From an uncultured Gemmatimonadales bacterium (GTDB lineage: Bacteria > Gemmatimonadota > Gemmatimonadetes > Gemmatimonadales > GWC2-71-9): 64,000 bases of DNA. The DNA lies in NCBI GenBank assembly GCA_963832055.1, contig CAWHST010000001.1, forward strand, positions 2,183 to 66,182. Direction: 5' to 3'. Under the pieces are notes generated by a model. It had not been told where the DNA came from. It was given only the letters and a program-made list of their open reading frames with translations, and did no database searches. Shown piece after piece: positions 41,713-60,894 of the stretch. The position numbers and the translations under genes were made by a program. Positions within the stretch are counted from its first letter, which is position 1, and each line of letters opens with the position of its first letter.

Positions 41713-41796
41713 AAAGAAGCGTGAACAGTGAACGGTGAAAAGTGAAAGGGGGCATCCTCCCTTTCACTTTTCACCGTTCACTGTTCACGCTTCTTT
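41713..41796. repeat. Heptamer-built palindrome, copy 1 (perfect 38-bp arms, 8-nt loop)
   Basis: AAAGAAGCGTGAACAGTGAACGGTGAAAAGTGAAAGGG and its exact reverse complement. Confidence 0.95.
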
Positions 41797-47286: not shown

Positions 47287-48703
47287 ATGACCGACGATCT
47301 CCGCATCCATGCCGCCGCGGAGCCGGCACCCCGCCATGGCGGCGAGCACGTGCTCTACTGGATGCAGAGCACGTTTCGCACGCGGGACAATCAGGCTCTC
47401 GATTTCGGGATCGAGCAGGCCAACCGCCTCGGACTCCCGCTGCTCGTCTACCACGGTCTGAGGCACGACTACCCCTGGGCGAGCGACCGGCTGCACACCT
47501 TCCTGCTCCAATCGGTCGCCGACCTGTACCACGAATTCGACCAGCTTGGCATCCAGTACGCCTTCTATCTCGAGCGGGACGGCGACGACGCAGTCGCAAG
47601 AAGGGCGGCGGGACGGCCGTCGCCGCTGGTGGACCTCGCCCGCCGCGCGGCGCTCGTGGTGACGGATTACTTCCCCACCTTCCTCGCGCCGAGGCAGACC
47701 CGCGCTCTTCGCCGGAAGGTGGAGACGCCCGTGATCGCGGTGGACTCCGCTACGGTGGTGCCGATCCGATACCACGAGCGGGAGTATCCCACCGCCGCGC
47801 CGTTTCGCTCCCGGCTCATGGCGGCGCTGCCGCACTACCTCCACCGCTCGCCCAGCCCGGAGCTGAAGGTGCGGCACCGTGTCGACCTGCCGTTCGAGCC
47901 GACGGTCCCGGATGGCGGGATCGCGGAGCCTGGTGGCCTCGTGCGACATCGATCACTCCGTCGCTCCCGCGCCGGGTATCCGCGGCGGGCCGAAGGCCGC
48001 ACGGGAGCAGCTGGAGCGCTTCCTGGAGACCGGTCTGCCTCGGTATGCGGAGGAGCGCAGCGACCCCAACGCCGATGCCACCAGCCGACTGTCGCCCTAC
48101 CTCCACTTCGGCAACATCTCGCCGGTGGAGGTGGTGCTGCGGGCCAGGGAGGCGGGGCCGTCCGAGCAGTTCGCCAAGTTCCAGGACGAGATCCTCACCT
48201 GGCGGGAGCTGGCGTTCAACTTCACCCACTTCAACCCGCGGCATCGGAAGGTCGAGGCCATTCCCGACTGGGCGCGGCGCGAGCTTCGCACCGGCGAATC
48301 GGACGATCGTCCGGCGCTCTACACCGCCGAGGAACTGGAGCAGGCACGCACCGGCGAGCCGCTCTGGAACGCCGCCCAGACGGCGTACGTCCGGGACGGG
48401 TGGATGCCGAATCCGCTCCGAATGCTGTGGGGGAAGTCGGTGATTCAGTGGACCCGGAACGCGGAGCAGGCGCTCGCAATCCTCGAGCATCTCAACAACA
48501 AGTACGCACTCGACGGCCGCGATCCGAGCTCCTACCTCAACATCCTCTGGGTGTTCGGCAAGTTCGACCGGCCGTTCTATCGGCGGCCCATCTACGGGAC
48601 GGTGCGGTACATGTCGCTCAAGGCTGCGGAGAAGAAGTTCGATGTGCGGAGCGTGGTCGAGAGATACACCCGAAAAGCGGGAACAGTGAACAGTGAAAAG
48701 TGA
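47287..48703 (+). CDS. phr: Class II deoxyribodipyrimidine photolyase (frameshifted)
   Basis: VLYWMQ, SRLSPYLHFGNIS, LWNAAQ, RMLWGK, NNKYALDGRDP, RPIYGTVRYMS. Confidence 0.9.
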
Positions 48704-48769
48704 AAGGGATGAGACGGTAGCGCACCGACCCTCCTTTTCACTTTTCACTGTTCACCGTTCACGCTTTTC
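48672..48769. repeat. Heptamer-built palindrome, copy 2
   Basis: GAAAAGCGGGAACAGTGAACAGTGAAAAGTGAAAGGGA ... TCCTTTTCACTTTTCACTGTTCACCGTTCACGCTTTTC; overlaps the stops of both convergent genes. Confidence 0.92.
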
Positions 48770-49416: not shown

Positions 49417-49495
49417 GCGTGAAAGGTGAACAGTGAACAGTGAAAGGGATGGTCGGCCCGACCCCCTTTCACTTTTCTCCTTTCACCTTTCCCGC
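49417..49495. repeat. Heptamer-built palindrome, copy 3 (degenerate)
   Basis: GCGTGAAAGGTGAACAGTGAACAGTGAAAGGG ... CCCTTTCACTTTTCTCCTTTCACCTTTCCCGC. Confidence 0.85.
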
Positions 49496-50441: not shown

Positions 50442-50517
50442 GCGTGAAGGTGAAAGTGAAAAGTGAAAGGGAGAAGACGGTGCGACTCGTCTCTCCCTTT
50501 CACTTTTCACTTCACGC
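50442..50517. repeat. Heptamer-built palindrome, copy 4
   Basis: GCGTGAAGGTGAAAGTGAAAAGTGAAAGGGAGA ... TCTCCCTTTCACTTTTCACTTCACGC. Confidence 0.88.
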
Positions 50518-53062: not shown

Positions 53063-53771
53063 ATGCCGCGTAAGTCTAGGGCCGACCGCAAGCTCCAGGC
53101 ATCGGAGTTCCGCCGGCGCCTGCTCCGCTGGTTCCGGCGCCACGGCCGCGACCTGCCCTGGCGGCGGACCCGGGATCCGTACCGCATCGTGGTGTCGGAG
53201 TTCATGCTTCAGCAGACCCAGGTGGCACGAGTCGAGGCGTACTACCACCGGTTCCTGGAGCGCTACCCGTCCATCGAGACCCTGGCGGCGGCCCCCGCGG
53301 CGATGGTGCGGGAGAGCTGGGAAGGGCTGGGCTATTACCGCCGTGCGGCGAACCTCCACCGGCTGGCACAGGCGGTGGTGGCGGAGCACGGCGGGAGGGT
53401 GCCGGACGATCTCGAGGCGCTGGTGCGGCTGCCCGGTGTCGGCAGATATACGGCGGGAGCGGTGGCGTGCTTCGCGTACGAGCGCCCGACGCGCGGCCGT
53501 GGATACCAACGTCGCCCGGGTGATCCGGCGTGCGTTCCATCCCAGGCTGCGGGGCGCGACGGCGGCCCGCCGGGTCTGGGAGACCGCCGGGGCACTCGTC
53601 CCCCGCCGAGCTGGAAGTGCCTGGGCTTTCAACCAGGCGATCATGGAGCTGGGCGCGCTGGTGTGCACGGCCAGAGCCGCCCGGTGCGAGAGCTGCCCGG
53701 TCAGCGGCTGGTGTGAGACCGGAAGGCGGGTGCAGAGAGAAACAGCGGGAAAAGTGAACAGTGAACAGTGA
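53063..53771 (+). CDS. mutY: A/G-specific adenine glycosylase, short form (frameshift near 53490)
   Basis: RDLPWR, VSEFMLQQTQV, WEGLGYYRRA, LPGVGRYTAGA, VDTNV, C-x6-C-x2-C-x5-C. Confidence 0.9.
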
Positions 53772-53777
53772 ACGGGA
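53745..53777 (+). repeat. Left arm of heptamer element copy 5
   Basis: GCGGGAAAAGTGAACAGTGAACAGTGAACGGGA directly abuts the four-helix-bundle stop. Confidence 0.88.
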
Positions 53778-54140
53778 TTATCCAGGAAAGCGGCGACGGC
53801 GCTTGAGCAGGCCGAGCAGGAGGCGACAAGCGTGGTTCGCGTGCCGGAGAAGGCCCGCACCGGGGTCCTCCGGGAAGACCTCCGCTTCTACCCCCAACCT
53901 CAGGATCTCCGCTGTCTCGACGGCTGAGCCATAGGCCATACCCAGGTGGCGAGTGTAGTTAGGACTATCGCCGAACGAGTATCCCTCAGCAATGTTGAGC
54001 TCGACGCTCAGTGATGCCCGCTGAAGCTGGCTAAAGAGGGCGGCCGCGTGGGGCTTCCACGAGGCCTTGCTCAACCGAATCACTCCCAAACTGACCGAAT
54101 GTGCCTCCTGCCACGCCCGAAGCGACCTGTGATCTCGCAC
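53778..54140 (-). CDS. Four-helix-bundle protein (23S rRNA IVS-protein / Avd-like family)
   Basis: HRSLRAWQEA...LFSQLQRASLSVELNIAEG...HLGMAYGSAVET matches the family pattern L.VWQ...Q..RA..S...NIAEG...A.GS..E. Confidence 0.88.
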   Translation of the reverse strand: MRDHRSLRAWQEAHSVSLGVIRLSKASWKPHAAALFSQLQRASLSVELNIAEGYSFGDSPNYTRHLGMAYGSAVETAEILRLGVEAEVFPEDPGAGLLRHANHACRLLLGLLKRRRRFPG

Positions 54141-54176
54141 GAAGGGAAATTGGGAACCGCAAGCCCGATTCGTTGT

Positions 54177-54209
54177 TCCCTTTTACCGTTCACCGTTCAC
54201 TTTTCACGC
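54177..54209 (-). repeat. Right arm of heptamer element copy 5
   Basis: TCCCTTTTACCGTTCACCGTTCACTTTTCACGC; 28 of 33 positions complementary to the left arm. Confidence 0.88.
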
Positions 54210-54212
54210 TTT

Positions 54213-54677
54213 TCAAGGTACTGCGAGCATCGCCCCCCCAACCAACGCCGCCAGCGCCAACGCCCCCGCGATCGAGCCGGTCAGCCGCTGCCGCTGCCGC
54301 AGCTCATCGAAGTAGGCCGCATTGGGACCCAGGGGATCCATCCGCGCCAGCTTCGACGAGGTGGGCAGCCCGACCAGCAGCACGATCAGCGCCGCCACGA
54401 CACCCGCGCCCTGCATCAGGACGAGCCACAGGCTGAACCCGACCTGCCCACCCTGCAGGCTGGTCATCGCGAAAGTCAGCATCAGTCCGGACAACACCGT
54501 CAGCAGCGCCCCGGGCGCCACCAGCACCTTCTGCACCGCCGCCTGTGCCCGAACCACGGCGCCCAGCCGCGCCCGCTCCTCGTCCCTCGAGACGATGCCG
54601 GCCACCATGGACGCGAGTCCCCCGCCGATCCACACGGTAAAGCCTATGAGATGCAGGAAGACCCAGAGACGGATCAC
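54213..54677 (-). CDS. Hypothetical four-TM membrane protein
   Basis: FLHLIGFTVWIGG start; hydrophobic helices. Confidence 0.75.
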   Translation of the reverse strand: MIRLWVFLHLIGFTVWIGGGLASMVAGIVSRDEERARLGAVVRAQAAVQKVLVAPGALLTVLSGLMLTFAMTSLQGGQVGFSLWLVLMQGAGVVAALIVLLVGLPTSSKLARMDPLGPNAAYFDELRQRQRLTGSIAGALALAALVGGAMLAVP

Positions 54678-55102
54678 GAGGAGGACATCGCGGACAGGAT
54701 GGCATCGTCGATCGGCTGCCGTCCGGAGAAGCCCGCGTCGATCTCGTGCCAGTGGCTGATGCGCTCCTCGCCCAGCTTCCAGCAGAGAAAGATCGGCCGG
54801 TCTTCCCGGAGGGAGTAGAAATCCACCAGCCCGGCGTCGAATCCCTTGAAGACGCAGCCGACCGCCTCAAGCTCCTGGAGATAGCGGTTGATCTGATCGG
54901 CGTGGCGGGCCACATCCTCCCGCGCGGCGAGCAGCTCGCCGGTCTCGCCCCAGTCGGCGCGCGCGCCGCCGGTCAGCAGCTCGAAGCGCGATACGGCCGC
55001 GCGCCAGGCCGGATACTCGTGGGTGAGATCCTCGACGATCCGTCGCACCAGCGGCAACGTGCGCTCGGCTTCCCTGAGACTGAAGAGCTTGAAATCGGGC
55101 AT
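54674..55102 (-). CDS. DUF2203 family protein
   Basis: FSLREAERTLP, GLVDFYS, LCWKLGE..I.HWHE..AGFSGRQPI. Confidence 0.88.
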   Translation of the reverse strand: MPDFKLFSLREAERTLPLVRRIVEDLTHEYPAWRAAVSRFELLTGGARADWGETGELLAAREDVARHADQINRYLQELEAVGCVFKGFDAGLVDFYSLREDRPIFLCWKLGEERISHWHEIDAGFSGRQPIDDAILSAMSSS

Positions 55103-55142: not shown

Positions 55143-55229
55143 AGCGTGAACGGTGAAAGGTAAAAGGTGAACGGGGGGCAGCTGGCCGAGCTTCTTCCCT
55201 TTTACCGTTCACTGTTCACTGTTCACGCT
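55143..55229. repeat. Heptamer-built palindrome, copy 6
   Basis: AGCGTGAACGGTGAAAGGTAAAAGGTGAACGGGG ... CCCTTTTACCGTTCACTGTTCACTGTTCACGCT; contains the CBS gene stop. Confidence 0.88.
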
Positions 55230-58950: not shown

Positions 58951-59029
58951 AGCGTGAACAGTGAACGGTGAAAAGTGAAAGGGGTGTTCAGAGCTCTCCC
59001 TTTTACCTTTTACTGTTCACCGTTCACGC
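58951..59029. repeat. Heptamer-built palindrome, copy 7
   Basis: AGCGTGAACAGTGAACGGTGAAAAGTGAAAGGGG ... CCCTTTTACCTTTTACTGTTCACCGTTCACGC. Confidence 0.92.
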
Positions 59030-59038
59030 AGTTCACGT

Positions 59039-60894
59039 CTAGTAGTCCACCGGCCTCAGGTAATACTCCCCGATCGCCGTCGCACTCAGCATCGCCACCG
59101 TCGGCAGTCTTCGCTTCCAGTGGGTCGAGTCGAGGCGACGGCGGACCAGGTCCAGCTCCTCCTCGGTGTACCCCAGCGGAATGATGTCCGCGGTGCGGTA
59201 GCCGAGCAGGATCCAGTGGAGGATCGCGTCGGCCCGGGGATAGGAGATGCCGAAGTCGCCCTCGTCGGTCTGGCCCTGGATGAGGTCGGCGCTCGCGGGC
59301 TTGGAGACGATGACCTCCGGCACCTTCAGGTGCCGCGCGAGGGTCCAGACCTGGGTCTTGAACAGGTCACCGATCGGGTTCACCGGCGGTGAGTCGTCGG
59401 CATGCCAGGTGAAGTAGCCGAGCAGCCGCTCGGTCTTGTTGCCGGTGCCGACGGGAAGCGCGCGCTGGGCGGCGGAGATGTCGAACAGGGTGATCATGCG
59501 CGCGCGGGCCATGATGTTGCCCAAACGCGCGGGGTCGGGCGCGCCGCCGATCGCGGACGCCAGGCCGTCCACCGCGGCGCTGATCTCGACCGTCCTACCC
59601 TCGATGGCGAGCGCGTCGATCACCAGTTGGGCGTGCGCCAGGCTCTCCTGGCTGGAAGTGCGGTAGGGCATCCGCACGCCGATCACATTCTCCGCCCCGA
59701 GCGCCTCCGCCGCGAGAAACGCGACCAACGAGCTGTCCACGCCGCCGGATAGACCAATCACCACTTTCTCGAATCCGCGGCGGCGCTGCACTTCGTCCCG
59801 GAGAAACTCGACCAGCCAGCGCCGGGTGAGCTCGGGGTCGATGGCGAGCGGATCGGCGGATGGGCGGAACGGCGGAGCGGCGGACCGGCGGAGCGCGGCG
59901 GACGCGGCCCCGGGGCTTTCGCGCGTGGGTATCCTGTTGGCTCGCTTCTACAGCGGTCGCTTCGCCTGCACCCTTCCGCCGTTCCGCCGTTCCGTCGTTC
60001 CGCCCTTTTTCCCGCCTGCGCCGCGTGCAGCGATCCCAGCAGATGCGGCAGCCGCATCTCCAGATCCGCGAGGAGCGGCAGCTCGGCGCGGGCACGGGTG
60101 ATCTCCTCGAAGTCGAGCGTCGCCGGGATCAGCGCCTCCTCGAAGATCGGCCCTTGTGCCACCACGTCGCCCCGCGGCGACCCCACGATCGATCCGCCGG
60201 CAAATGCCTTCCCTCCCTCGAACCCCACCAGTTGCGCGAGGGCGACGTAGACGCCGTGCTCGCTCGCGATGTCCTGGACGATGCGGCTCCAGCGGCCGAG
60301 ACTCGCAGGGCGGCCCGGGCTACTGTCGTCTCCTGGCACCGGCCCGCGCGCGGGGCTGGCACTGGGCACGATGATGAGCTGGGCGCCATCCAGTGCCGCG
60401 AGCATCGGGGTGAACGAATGCCAGACGTCCTCGCAGATCAGGATCGCCGCCCGGCCCCAGGCCGTGTCGAACGCCTGGACGCTCCGGCCGGCCTCGACGA
60501 AACGCTCCTCGTCGAAGACACCGTAGGTAGGCAGGAACACCTTCCGGTGGACATGGCGAATCCCGGCATCGGGGCCGCCCAGCCTGGCGTAGATCGCCGA
60601 GTTGTAGAGGCGGTTCTGGTGGACCTCGTAGAAGCCCAGGGCGACGTCGAACGGCGGCGCCTTCGCGTCGCGGTGCTGTCCCGCCAAATCGTCGAACAGA
60701 TGGTCGGCGGAGATCGCGAGGTCGCGGACCCCTCCCTCGAGGAAATACCCGGTGAGCGCCGTTTCCGGCGCGACCATCAGGTCCGGCGGCTCGGCCCAGC
60801 CGCCGGCCTCCCGGAAGAGGACCCCCAGCCGGCAGAGGTTCTCTTCGTAGGCGCCCTTGTGGGGCCGGAGCTGGGCGATGGCAAGGCGGAGCAC
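59039..60894 (-). CDS. nadE: Glutamine-dependent NAD+ synthetase (nitrilase domain plus synthetase domain; frame break in the linker)
   Basis: APETALTGY, HRKVFLPTYGVFDE, ICEDVW; GLSGGVDSS, GTGNKTE, SADL. Confidence 0.88.
59855..60004. repeat. Octamer (GGCGGA-NN) inverted-repeat element inside the nadE linker
   Basis: GGCGGANN x5-6 at 59855-59904 facing (G/C)TTCCG(C/T)C x4 at 59973-60004. Confidence 0.8.

What the first reader, a model, noticed from the sequence alone, without database searches (positions are those of the whole stretch)
53745..54209. Four-helix-bundle gene sits inside the arms of a heptamer palindrome: the 'loaded' form of a dispersed element
Seen: a 120-aa four-helix-bundle ORF lies between two 33-bp arms that are 28/33 complementary. 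The left arm abuts its stop codon and the right arm lies 36 bp before its start. The same arms occur six more times nearby with only a short loop. Known: this family includes the proteins encoded in the loop of RNase III-excised 23S rRNA intervening sequences and the DGR accessory protein Avd, a nucleic-acid-binding oligomer. Inference: this is an IVS-like, stem-enclosed gene unit at mRNA level or a transposase-free mobile unit. The empty palindromes would be its non-autonomous forms or landing sites, and the protein may bind the GTGAANN repeats.
Basis: partly seen in the sequence, partly recalled or inferred. Interest (0 to 1): 0.85.

Follow-up and report, generated by a model that had tools for sequence, protein, structure and literature searches.

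The report
Small gene inside a repeat hairpin
A small, well-conserved gene sits in the loop of a long hairpin whose arms are the same short tandem repeats that form about ninety gene-less hairpins elsewhere in this soil bacterium, and the same gene-in-hairpin design recurs in distant bacteria, which points to an unrecognised kind of self-perpetuating genetic element.

Summary
Window 53778-54140 (-) encodes a 120-aa PF05635/TIGR02436 four-helix-bundle (4HB) protein. It is enclosed by two 37-nt arms, each made of four GTGAAMR heptamers. The unit has the same layout as about 70-90 gene-less hairpins in the genome, six of them in the window.

The design is general. In Gemmatimonadales, 64 of 66 PF05635 loci examined are enclosed by inverted arms, mostly tandem 7- or 8-nt units. 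Only 1 of 150 control genes is. The unit differs between paralogues and species, and each genome's dispersed hairpins carry the unit of its own 4HB gene. This genome has two 4HB genes and two tandem-unit hairpin families, one heptamer and one octamer, and they match one to one. Octamer arms occur in only one protein clade.

The protein is under purifying selection (dN/dS 0.06-0.15). The unit occupies at least four loci, lies in both orientations, and shows presence, remnant and absence at the mutY locus. Cyanobacterial plasmids, a Saccharibacteria genome and an Azospirillum 23S rRNA IVS show the same design.

Best reading: a REPIN/RAYT-like, IVS-like hairpin cassette without a transposase. That the protein binds the repeats is inferred, not shown. 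RNase III was not found in 40 of 41 genomes of the order, so RNase III excision is doubtful here.

The parts
53741..53777 (.). Arm next to the stop codon: terminal AACAGC, four heptamers (GGGAAAA GTGAACA GTGAACA GTGAACG, 53747-53774), then GGA. It also holds the TGA stop of the mutY-like gene (53769-53771).
53778..54140 (-). 120-aa four-helix-bundle protein gene (PF05635/TIGR02436). The motif Q38..R41..S45..N49..E52-G53 is conserved, and the C-terminal tail is basic (KRRRRF).
   Evidence: dN/dS against the G113 orthologue is 0.15
54141..54176 (-). 36-nt spacer between the upstream arm and the start codon. No sigma-70-like promoter was found. It diverges strongly from the G113 spacer, while the arms are nearly identical.
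54177..54213 (.). Arm upstream of the gene: TCC, four heptamers (54180-54207), then terminal GCTTTT. Its last base overlaps the stop codon of the 154-aa membrane-protein gene.
41721..41789 (.). Gene-less hairpin of the same family (4+4 heptamers, 12-nt loop).
   Evidence: conserved in place in G113
48679..48763 (.). Gene-less hairpin (4+4 heptamers, 28-nt loop). Its loop is reverse-complemented in the G113 orthologue.
49419..49494 (.). Gene-less hairpin with a partly degenerate right arm.
50456..50511 (.). Short, degenerate gene-less hairpin.
55146..55227 (.). Gene-less hairpin (4+4 heptamers). G113 has only the right-hand arm at this site.
58954..59028 (.). Gene-less hairpin (4+4 heptamers).
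53063..53771 (+). Context: mutY-like gene, convergent with the unit. It reads in two frames in the window and ends inside the left arm.
54213..54677 (-). Context: 154-aa membrane-protein gene directly upstream of the unit on the same strand.

Best explanation
Shown: the feature is the gene-bearing ('loaded') member of a hairpin family. A PF05635 four-helix-bundle gene lies in the loop of a hairpin whose arms are four tandem GTGAAMR heptamers. The genome's roughly 70-90 gene-less hairpins have the same termini, the same number of units and the same GGR...YCC loop borders.

Gene-in-hairpin is the normal genomic form of PF05635 genes in this order, and it also occurs in other phyla. The 23S rRNA IVS is the special case in which such a unit lies in an rRNA gene. 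The arm unit (7 or 8 nt) is specific to the protein lineage. Each genome's dispersed hairpins carry the unit of its own 4HB gene or genes. Gene and hairpin population therefore co-evolve as RAYT genes and REPINs do, although the gene is not a transposase.

Inferred mechanism: the 4HB protein is a pentameric ring in its solved relative 2GSC and is related to the nucleic-acid-binding Avd. It probably recognises the tandem units of its own hairpin family as folded RNA or single-stranded DNA. It would then help maintain, copy or protect them. The hairpins sit at the 3' ends of genes, where a long stem can end or protect transcripts. The arms recombine or fold back, which flips the interior. The unit is mostly inherited vertically but relocates and decays over time.

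My odds: about 0.85 that the loaded/empty family relation and lineage-specific co-evolution are real; about 0.35 that the protein binds the units and drives the family.
For: 1. Same layout for loaded and empty forms. The pattern is AAMAGC, then 4 x GTGAAMR, then GGR-loop-YCC, then 4 units, then GCTKTT. The loaded form reads GGA[399 nt]TCC.

2. Enclosure by arms.
- 28 of 29 PF05635 loci have an enclosing inverted repeat with z of at least 3.8.
- 22 of 23 loci of G087, G091 and G095 do.
- 17 of 17 close relatives of the window's protein with both flanks do, with z of at least 6.
- That makes 64 of 66 distinct loci.
- Control: of 150 small called genes of G000, 1 has z above 4 and none has z above 9.

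3. One-to-one match within this genome. The hairpin census of 230 gives 72 heptamer GTGAAMR, 41 octamer GGCGGAMS, 40 REP-like, 70 non-periodic and 7 other tandem. The genome's only two PF05635 genes carry heptamer arms and octamer arms respectively. The octamer-armed gene has about 21 GGCGGAAC units upstream.

4. Diagonal matrix across species. Counts are for GTGAAMR x3 / GGGGAAC x3 / GGRGAAR x3:
- G000: 141 / 0 / 0
- G078: 0 / 30 / 8
- G071: 0 / 0 / 53
- G051: 0 / 3 / 20
- G087: 11 / 0 / 0
Each genome peaks at the unit that flanks its own gene.

5. In the first 400 kb of G087 contig C1, 7 of 10 tandem-unit hairpins have the unit of one of that genome's six 4HB genes.

6. Protein tree of 59 rows. 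Period 8 occurs in only one clade of 21 rows (support 97/98): 17 rows with period 8, one with period 9, one non-periodic and two unscored. None of the other 38 rows has octamers. The window's clade of 18 rows (support 100/100) has only G[TG][GA]AA-type units.

7. dN/dS is 0.06-0.15 in 5 orthologue pairs.

8. The unit lies at four or more syntenic loci and is inverted relative to its flanks in 4 loci. A loop flip and a full-versus-half hairpin separate G000 from G113.

9. Other phyla. Seven of 8 loci from cyanobacterial plasmids and Azospirillum have z above 4, and the Azospirillum locus lies inside a 23S rRNA gene. In a Saccharibacteria genome, 3 of 4 loci above the Pfam cut-off have arms, one of them judged by eye.

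10. The arms pair in both the minimum-energy and the centroid RNA fold, z -4.06.

11. Genus-wide, leaving out unpublished genomes: 17 of 24 genomes with at least 10 GTGAAMR x3 arrays have a clade-I gene, against 22 of 75 with fewer. These are hand tallies.
Against: - No binding, cleavage or copying activity was tested, and none is known for this family. The protein has no recognisable catalytic domain.
- There are no target-site duplications, no transposase in the unit, and no reverse transcriptase in the 62%-complete genome. The means of spread is therefore unknown.
- Seven genomes have at least 10 arrays but no clade-I gene was found. Two of them are 97-98% complete (G097, G114). G069 has only a remnant.
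- In G091 and G057, the exact GTGAAGA x3 of the arms occurs nowhere else.
- In the G087 sample, 3 of 10 tandem-unit hairpins have no cognate gene. Several G091 hairpin types have none either.
- Five of 6 window hairpins lie at the same place in G113, so turnover is slow.
- Cis complementarity at the variable positions is only 0.68, against 0.52 in trans.
- Related genomes are not independent, and most are fragmented MAGs.
- In a re-run with flanks cut at the ORF ends, 5 of 59 loci fell below z 4.
- Descent alone, with arms inherited along with the gene, could give the link between protein clade and period.
Confidence: 0.55

Rival explanations
1. Cis-only stem. The arms are an RNA or DNA structure needed only for expression, insulation or stability of the 4HB gene itself. 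The gene-less hairpins are ordinary 3'-end hairpins that share units with the arms by descent (internal deletion of loaded units) or by gene conversion. The protein has an unrelated job.
For: - The arms pair in the RNA fold.
- Between G000 and G113 the arms are far more conserved than the spacer, and dS of the gene is 0.39.
- Hairpins persist in genomes where no cognate gene was found.
- Gene-less hairpins are enriched between convergent genes: 29 of 70 against 324 of 1839 background intergenic regions (crude gene caller).
Against: - It does not explain why each species' whole hairpin population has changed unit together with the arms.
- It does not explain why unit period follows the protein clade over long times while unit sequence drifts.
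- The protein is under strong purifying selection and is always kept inside the hairpin (64 of 66 loci).
Confidence: 0.2
2. Passenger gene that targets hairpin loops. The tandem-unit hairpins come first, and the 4HB gene is a small mobile cassette that lands in their loops, as an IVS sits at the tip of an rRNA helix.
For: - Loops are variable and can hold other elements. At least 8 of 41 octamer-hairpin loops hold a nested REP-like palindrome.
- IVSs sit at helix tips (PMC4990558, passages read).
Against: - At the mutY locus, none of the 24 non-loaded orthologous sites inspected shows an intact empty hairpin. The states seen are loaded, remnant, solo arm or nothing.
- Each paralogue would need its own loop specificity to give the clade-to-period rule.
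- No integrase or nuclease lies in the unit.
Confidence: 0.12
3. Invertible switch. The inverted arms are sites for programmed flipping of the gene, giving phase variation.
For: - Both orientations occur at the same locus in different species.
- A loop has flipped between G000 and G113.
Against: - No strand-changing joints appear in the contigs of 4 soil runs. Only skips that turn out to be other hairpins were seen.
- No invertase gene lies nearby.
- Flips are seen between species, not within populations.
- This reading does not explain the roughly 90 gene-less copies.
Confidence: 0.04
4. Avd-type accessory protein of a diversity-generating retroelement.
For: PF05635 includes Avd. The octamer-clade paralogue hits the PHROG family 'Avd protein of DGR' weakly (E 3.7e-4).
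Against: - No reverse transcriptase domain was found in the genome (the genome is 62% complete).
- The neighbours are a mutY-like gene and a membrane-protein gene.
- The window's protein has no PHROG or PADLOC hit.
Confidence: 0.01

Closest known systems
23S rRNA intervening sequences carrying an S23p/PF05635 ORF (Coxiella, Leptospira and others; PMC4990558, passages read)
   Same: Same protein family. The ORF is enclosed by complementary ends that form a long stem. Tandem heptamers lie beside the ORF: the paper reports three GACAGAT units, variable between strains, with the RNase III cut at the first repeat. An Azospirillum 23S IVS fetched here has tandem-heptamer arms.
   Different: The window's unit lies between protein-coding genes, not in an rRNA gene. 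It has about 90 gene-less relatives. The protein is under purifying selection, whereas the paper reports decay of the Coxiella ORF. RNase III was not found in this order.
REPIN/RAYT systems (PMC3116915, PMC3337134; search listing and abstract openings only)
   Same: A low-copy gene is flanked by inverted copies of a repeat that is dispersed as short palindromes. Gene and repeat population are lineage-specific and mostly vertically inherited. There are no target-site duplications.
   Different: The gene is a 120-aa four-helix bundle, not a Y1 transposase. The arms are tandem arrays of 7- or 8-nt units rather than a single REP sequence.
Heptamer tandem repeats: cyanobacterial STRR and Xanthomonas GGGAATC arrays (PMC4692102, passages read)
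   Same: These are tandem heptamers in intergenic regions. In X. campestris the paper reports 70 convergent (inverted) pairs. On cyanobacterial plasmids the 4HB genes fetched here are flanked by such heptamers.
   Different: That paper reads the arrays as G-quadruplex formers. Its main text does not mention S23, helix bundle or XCC0516. Whether XCC0516 is flanked by GGGAATC could not be checked here.
Avd, the accessory protein of diversity-generating retroelements
   Same: Same Pfam family and fold class. That it binds nucleic acid and reverse transcriptase as a pentamer is recalled, not checked in a paper here.
   Different: There is no reverse transcriptase and no template or variable repeats here.
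MITEs
   Same: Short non-coding palindromic copies related to a longer gene-bearing form.
   Different: There are no target-site duplications and no transposase in the long form. Loops are unique to each copy.

Membership tests
PF05635 / TIGR02436 (23S rRNA IVS protein, four helix bundle protein) | Profile score above the curated cut-off | tested here: met
   PF05635 65.9 bits against 33.8. TIGR02436 64 bits against 24.
PF05635 / TIGR02436 | Conserved motif GxxRxxxSxxxNxxE (as quoted in PMC3936711, passage read) | tested here: met
   Q38, R41, N49, E52 and G53 are invariant, and S45 is at least 90% conserved, in 16 aligned members including the window's protein.
PF05635 / TIGR02436 | Four-helix-bundle fold, pentameric ring | not tested
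   Only sequence similarity to chain 2GSC_A, E 1.3e-7 over residues 2-82. No structure was predicted.
23S rRNA intervening sequence | Lies inside a 23S rRNA gene | tested here: not met
   Flanked by a mutY-like gene and a membrane-protein gene.
23S rRNA intervening sequence | Complementary ends form a stem that encloses the ORF | tested here: met
   37-nt arms, 84% complementary. They pair in the minimum-energy and centroid folds.
23S rRNA intervening sequence | Excised by RNase III | not testable with these tools
   No RNA run holds the stretch. RNase III domains were not found in G000, in 0 of 5 genomes, or in 40 of 41 genomes of the order.
REPIN/RAYT | Low-copy gene flanked by inverted copies of the genome's dispersed repeat | tested here: met
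REPIN/RAYT | The gene encodes an IS200/IS605-like Y1 transposase | tested here: not met
   The only families hit are PF05635, TIGR02436 and two related NCBIfam subfamilies scoring below their cut-offs.
REPIN/RAYT | Repeat population and flanking repeats change together between lineages | tested here: met
   Matrix against the arms.
MITE | Target-site duplication at the ends | tested here: not met
   Direct repeats at the ends of 70 hairpins do not differ from shuffled pairings.
DGR accessory protein Avd | Adjacent reverse transcriptase with template and variable repeats | tested here: not met
   No PF00078 match in G000.
Intrinsic terminator | Short G+C-rich stem with a 3-8 nt loop followed by a T run | tested here: not met
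   The consensus scan of 53300-54900 finds nothing at the arms. The gene-less hairpins have long stems with T-rich inner units, which that scan does not model.

The most novel reading that the evidence does not exclude
PF05635 four-helix-bundle proteins are the unit-specific, trans-acting partners of a class of hairpin replicators that spans several phyla and has not been recognised. These are palindromes whose arms are tandem 7- or 8-nt units. The rRNA intervening sequences, the cyanobacterial STRR heptamers and the Xanthomonas GGGAATC inverted pairs would all be special cases. The class would spread without a transposase and would account for much of the unexplained excess of heptamer repeats in bacterial genomes.
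Probability: 0.3. Interest if true: 0.9.

Novelty: new variant of a known kind. Interest (0 to 1): 0.82.

Why it matters
PF05635/TIGR02436 is a large family with no known function, spread over many phyla. Until now it has been noticed only in rRNA intervening sequences, in DGRs (as Avd) and scattered among cas genes (PMC11270868 and PMC3936711, passages read).

The results here give the family a defining genomic context. The gene lives inside a hairpin of tandem 7- or 8-nt units, and each genome's dispersed tandem-unit hairpins match its own genes. This ties three separately described oddities to one testable system: IVS elements, heptamer repeat excess (STRR and Xanthomonas arrays), and REP-like 3' hairpins.

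It also predicts a simple experiment: cognate-specific binding of two paralogues from one genome to heptamer and octamer arrays.

If the protein does drive the family, this would be a self-perpetuating element that works without a transposase.

Tried and rejected
- Chance: rejected.
- The same GTGAA arms on the other PF05635 genes of relatives: not found on L003-L031. This at first looked like a refutation. A search for any inverted repeat then showed that they carry arms of other units.
- One heptamer type per genome: rejected. The 260-kb contig G091 C5 holds at least eight unit types.
- Exact GTGAAGA x3 as a dispersed family in G091 and G057: not found outside the arms.
- Classical transposition: no target-site duplication.
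- Retro-mobility or DGR: no reverse transcriptase found in G000 (62% complete, so absence is not shown).
- RNase III: not found. I therefore do not adopt RNase III excision for this organism.
- Own sigma-70-type promoter: none found in 53300-54900. Alignment of the spacers gives only a weak TGGTAC-N5-GC word. Its spacing does not fit sigma-54, whose consensus I recalled rather than checked.
- Defence-system and phage libraries: no PADLOC hit. One weak Avd PHROG hit for the paralogue only.
- Phage records: no tblastn match.
- The arm-less relative L018 lies between an ftsH-like gene and an alanine-racemase-fold gene, with no reverse transcriptase nearby.
- Expression: no RNA holder is listed for the stretch.
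- Population contigs: the 'skips' across the interior carry other loops and other flanks, so they are other hairpins and not an empty allele. No strand-changing joint was listed.
- Integron attC cassette: considered and dropped. The arms lie on both sides, they are tandem units, and no integrase is nearby.
- Literature. No paper in the library holds both an STRR term and 'four helix bundle protein' or 'S23 ribosomal'. None holds both 'four-helix bundle' and REPIN or RAYT among the 10 listed. Searches also found no description of tandem-unit arms around PF05635 genes beyond the Coxiella IVS note.
- Supplementary files were not opened. The gene lists in the supplements of PMC4692102 may show whether XCC0516 lies beside an array.
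- Not run: structure prediction, complex prediction, and the large protein database searches. The family assignment was already clear.
Full report
**The observation.** The window holds a 120-aa ORF at 53778-54140 on the minus strand. It scores well above the curated cut-offs of PF05635 (65.9 bits against 33.8) and TIGR02436 (64 bits against 24). Two 37-nt arms, 53741-53777 and 54177-54213, are 84% complementary and lie 399 nt apart. One arm abuts the stop codon. The other ends 36 nt before the start codon. The heptamer word is far above chance: 21 matches against 0.2 expected. Six short-loop copies lie in the window. The window is G000:C1:2183-66182, from a 3.99-Mb, 6-contig, 70% G+C assembly rated 62% complete. 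Close relatives are titled Gemmatimonadales MAGs.

**Anatomy of the family in this genome.** My scan finds 73 plus/minus array pairs. Seventy have loops of 7-62 nt, one has 405 nt between the heptamer arrays (the finding; 399 nt between the full arms), and two are false pairings. There are also 19 'orphans', mostly degenerate pairs. The gene-less hairpins follow a strict plan:
- terminal AAMAGC;
- four GTGAAMR units;
- GGR, a 9-28-nt loop that differs from copy to copy, then YCC;
- four complementary units;
- terminal GCTKTT.

Fifty-five of 70 are exactly 4+4 units. The loaded unit follows the same plan, with GGA[399 nt]TCC in place of the loop. Complementarity at the variable unit positions is higher within a hairpin (0.68) than between hairpins (0.52; none of 1000 permutations reaches it). 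There are no target-site duplications. Some 12-nt loops resemble each other, and longer loops are unique. With a crude gene caller, hairpins are enriched between convergent genes (29 of 70, against 324 of 1839 background intergenic regions) and depleted between divergent genes (4 of 70, against 371 of 1839). Many overlap the end of a gene by 4, 11 or 18 nt, because the TGA inside the unit serves as the stop codon.

**Relatives of the window's protein.** A protein search of 103 genomes of the genus finds hits at E 1e-8 or better in 64, including a subfamily 45-88% identical to the window's protein. I inspected 18 such loci, leaving out L038 from an unpublished genome. All 17 with both flanks are enclosed by inverted tandem arrays (z 6.0-53.6). 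The eighteenth is cut by a contig end and shows the upstream arm only.

The unit differs by species:
- GTGAAMR (G000, G113)
- GTGAAAR (G101, G077)
- GTGAAGA (G091, G057)
- GTGAACA (G046)
- GTAAASG (G081, G087, G011, G017)
- GGTGAAC (G094, G110)
- GGGGAAC (G078)
- GGGGAAR (G051)
- GGRGAAR (G071)
- a unit of about 20 nt (G095, G112, G067)

The dispersed arrays follow the arms. The table gives counts for three patterns:

| Genome | GTGAAMR x3 | GGGGAAC x3 (up to 1 mismatch) | GGRGAAR x3 |
|---|---|---|---|
| G000 | 141 | 0 | 0 |
| G078 | 0 | 30 | 8 |
| G071 | 0 | 0 | 53 |
| G051 | 0 | 3 | 20 |
| G087 | 11 | 0 | 0 |

Results against this picture:
- In G091 and G057 the exact GTGAAGA x3 word occurs only at the arms.
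- By hand tally, without the four unpublished genomes, 17 of 24 genomes with at least 10 GTGAAMR x3 arrays have such a gene, against 22 of 75 with fewer.
- The seven exceptions include two nearly complete assemblies (G097, G114) and one genome with only a gene remnant (G069).

**All PF05635 genes.** PF05635 matches occur in 34 of 41 genomes of the order that were sampled. None of the 29 fetched relatives' loci L003-L031 has GTGAA arrays. A search for any inverted repeat across the gene is positive in 28 of the 29 loci with both flanks (27 of relatives plus this genome's own two; z of at least 3.8, and above 9 in 27; L018 has none). It is positive in 22 of 23 loci of G087, G091 and G095. After removing duplicates, 64 of 66 loci are enclosed. 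In a re-run with flanks cut at the ORF ends, 54 of 59 reached z 4. Only 1 of 150 control genes reached z 4, and none reached z 9. Most arms are tandem 7- or 8-nt units with a different unit at each paralogue. A few (L019, L022, L031, L102) are non-periodic inverted repeats.

This genome's only other PF05635 gene (C6:746063-746356) has about 21 GGCGGAAC units upstream and about 9 inverted units downstream. The genome also holds 41 dispersed octamer hairpins of that type. A census of 230 strong hairpins gives 72 heptamer, 41 octamer, 40 REP-like, 70 non-periodic and 7 other tandem. Nearly all tandem-unit hairpins therefore belong to the two families that flank the two genes. In 400 kb of G087, 7 of 10 tandem-unit hairpins carry the unit of one of that genome's six 4HB genes and 3 do not.

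**Protein tree.** In a maximum-likelihood tree of 59 proteins, octamer arms are confined to one clade of 21 rows (support 97/98). That clade has 17 rows with period 8, one with period 9, one non-periodic and two unscored in that run. None of the other 38 rows has periodic octamers. The window's clade of 18 rows (support 100/100) has only G[TG][GA]AA-type units. Related rows share labels by descent, so this shows stable co-inheritance of protein lineage and unit length. It does not prove co-adaptation.

**Locus history.** The unit occupies at least four syntenic loci in the genus. At two of these loci it lies in either orientation relative to the flanks (L045, L049, L051 and L040). I examined the region downstream of the membrane-gene orthologue in 29 loci, leaving one unpublished genome out. 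Five are loaded (G000, G113, G101, G068, G065). Coordinates show further loaded cases (G094, G110, G051, G071, G072). G069 keeps a fragment with a stop codon, and G044 keeps a solo arm. G004, G103 and G116 run straight into mutY. Others hold a different REP-like element and a reverse-strand gene. None of the 24 non-loaded sites holds an intact empty hairpin. Against the sister genome G113 (about 96% identical over the region), 5 of 6 window hairpins are at the same place and one is a full hairpin here but a solo arm there. The loop of the 48679 hairpin is reverse-complemented. Interiors flip, hairpins are gained, lost or halved, and turnover is slow.

**Other phyla.** On cyanobacterial plasmids the gene is annotated 'four helix bundle protein' or 'S23 ribosomal protein'. 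It sits between cas6 and cas4, between cmr2 and cmr3, between the two ribonucleotide reductase genes, and elsewhere. Seven of 8 loci fetched have enclosing inverted repeats with z above 4, mostly tandem heptamers. The eighth (Nostoc pCC7120gamma, next to an ISL3 transposase) has heptamer arrays on both sides that are not complementary. The Azospirillum locus lies inside a 23S rRNA gene, so it is a true IVS with the same design. In a Saccharibacteria genome, 3 of 4 loci above the Pfam cut-off have tandem-unit arms, one of them judged by eye. The Coxiella IVS paper reports tandem GACAGAT heptamers upstream of the ORF, variable in number, with the RNase III cut at the first repeat (PMC4990558, passages read). 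A paper on Xanthomonas reports GGGAATC heptamer arrays with 70 inverted pairs, and its main text makes no link to this protein (PMC4692102, passages read).

**Function.**
- The protein is under purifying selection: dN/dS is 0.06-0.15 in 5 pairs.
- It keeps the family motif and resembles the solved chain 2GSC_A (E 1.3e-7).
- The arms pair in the predicted RNA fold (z -4.06).
- Loaded units mostly lie downstream of a gene on the same strand and face a convergent gene (18 of 31 scorable loci, crude caller).
- No sigma-70-like promoter was found.
- No reverse transcriptase domain was found in G000.
- RNase III domains were not found in G000, in 0 of 5 genomes, or in 40 of 41 genomes of the order. 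The one hit is on a 1.5-kb contig. The controls ring in 8 of 14 genomes.
- No RNA run holds the stretch.

**Interpretation.** Three things are shown. The finding is the gene-bearing member of a hairpin family. Gene-in-hairpin is the normal state of PF05635 genes. Genes and hairpin populations share lineage-specific units. The closest analogues are the REPIN/RAYT relation and the rRNA IVS, but the gene is neither a transposase nor located in an rRNA. I infer that the protein recognises the tandem units of its own family and helps maintain or spread them, and that the hairpins act at the 3' ends of transcripts. The rivals are a cis-only stem, a passenger gene that targets loops, an invertible switch and an Avd role. 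They are weighed in their own sections.

**Caveats.**
- Unit and period labels come from my own scripts, and a few from reading the flanks.
- The gene calls are crude.
- Most genomes are fragmented MAGs of related species.
- Supplementary files were not read.

Noticed in passing
whole order; not a window feature: RNase III domains were not found in 40 of 41 Gemmatimonadales genomes with PF14622. The single hit is on a 1.5-kb contig. PF00636 was found in 0 of 5 genomes. The same searches ring in 8 of 14 control genomes. The order may lack a canonical RNase III, which could be why long perfect hairpins are tolerated in transcripts.
   Followed up: partly
window 53063-53771 (+), break near 53492: The mutY-like gene reads in two overlapping frames (ORFs of 217 aa and 248 aa). 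All contigs of four soil and rhizosphere runs that cover the place lack one base at 53492. The frameshift is therefore probably an assembly error or specific to this strain.
   Followed up: partly
window 59862-60005 (= C1 62044-62187); G000 C6:745950-746580: There is a second tandem-unit hairpin family with 8-nt units (GGCGGAMS), 41 copies genome-wide and one in the window. Its gene-bearing member is the genome's other PF05635 gene, preceded by about 21 GGCGGAAC units.
   Followed up: yes
G000 genome-wide, e.g. C1:168372-168533: A REP-like palindrome (TGTCATCCCGAGCGNAGCGAGGGATC) occurs in 40 copies. At least 8 copies are nested inside the loops of octamer hairpins. A related element lies downstream of the membrane gene in several relatives.
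   Followed up: no
window 53769-53771 and many hairpins genome-wide: The TGA inside the GTGAAMR unit serves as the stop codon of the upstream gene. Gene ends overlap the arrays by 4, 11 or 18 nt.
   Followed up: partly
window 54141-54176; L034-L051 upstream spacers: A weak word, about TGGTAC-N5-GC, lies 15-25 nt inside the upstream arm in most relatives. In G000 and G113 the spacer is only 36 nt and a similar word lies on the opposite strand. The meaning is unknown.
   Followed up: partly
window 48679-48763 and 55146-55227 against G113 (L160-L162): Between sister genomes, one hairpin loop is reverse-complemented. Another site holds a full hairpin in G000 but only one arm in G113.
   Followed up: yes
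L146, L147, L149 (cyanobacterial plasmids): The 4HB unit sits inside operons: between cas6 and cas4, between cmr2 and cmr3, and antisense between the two ribonucleotide reductase genes. On the Nostoc edaphicum plasmid, two more arrays of the same TAGGGAG unit lie nearby.
   Followed up: partly
G005 and G009 (genus relatives): The 'reversed pattern' controls of two searches ring strongly in single genomes (G005 29+26; G009 26+18). These genomes hold other heptamer families.
   Followed up: no
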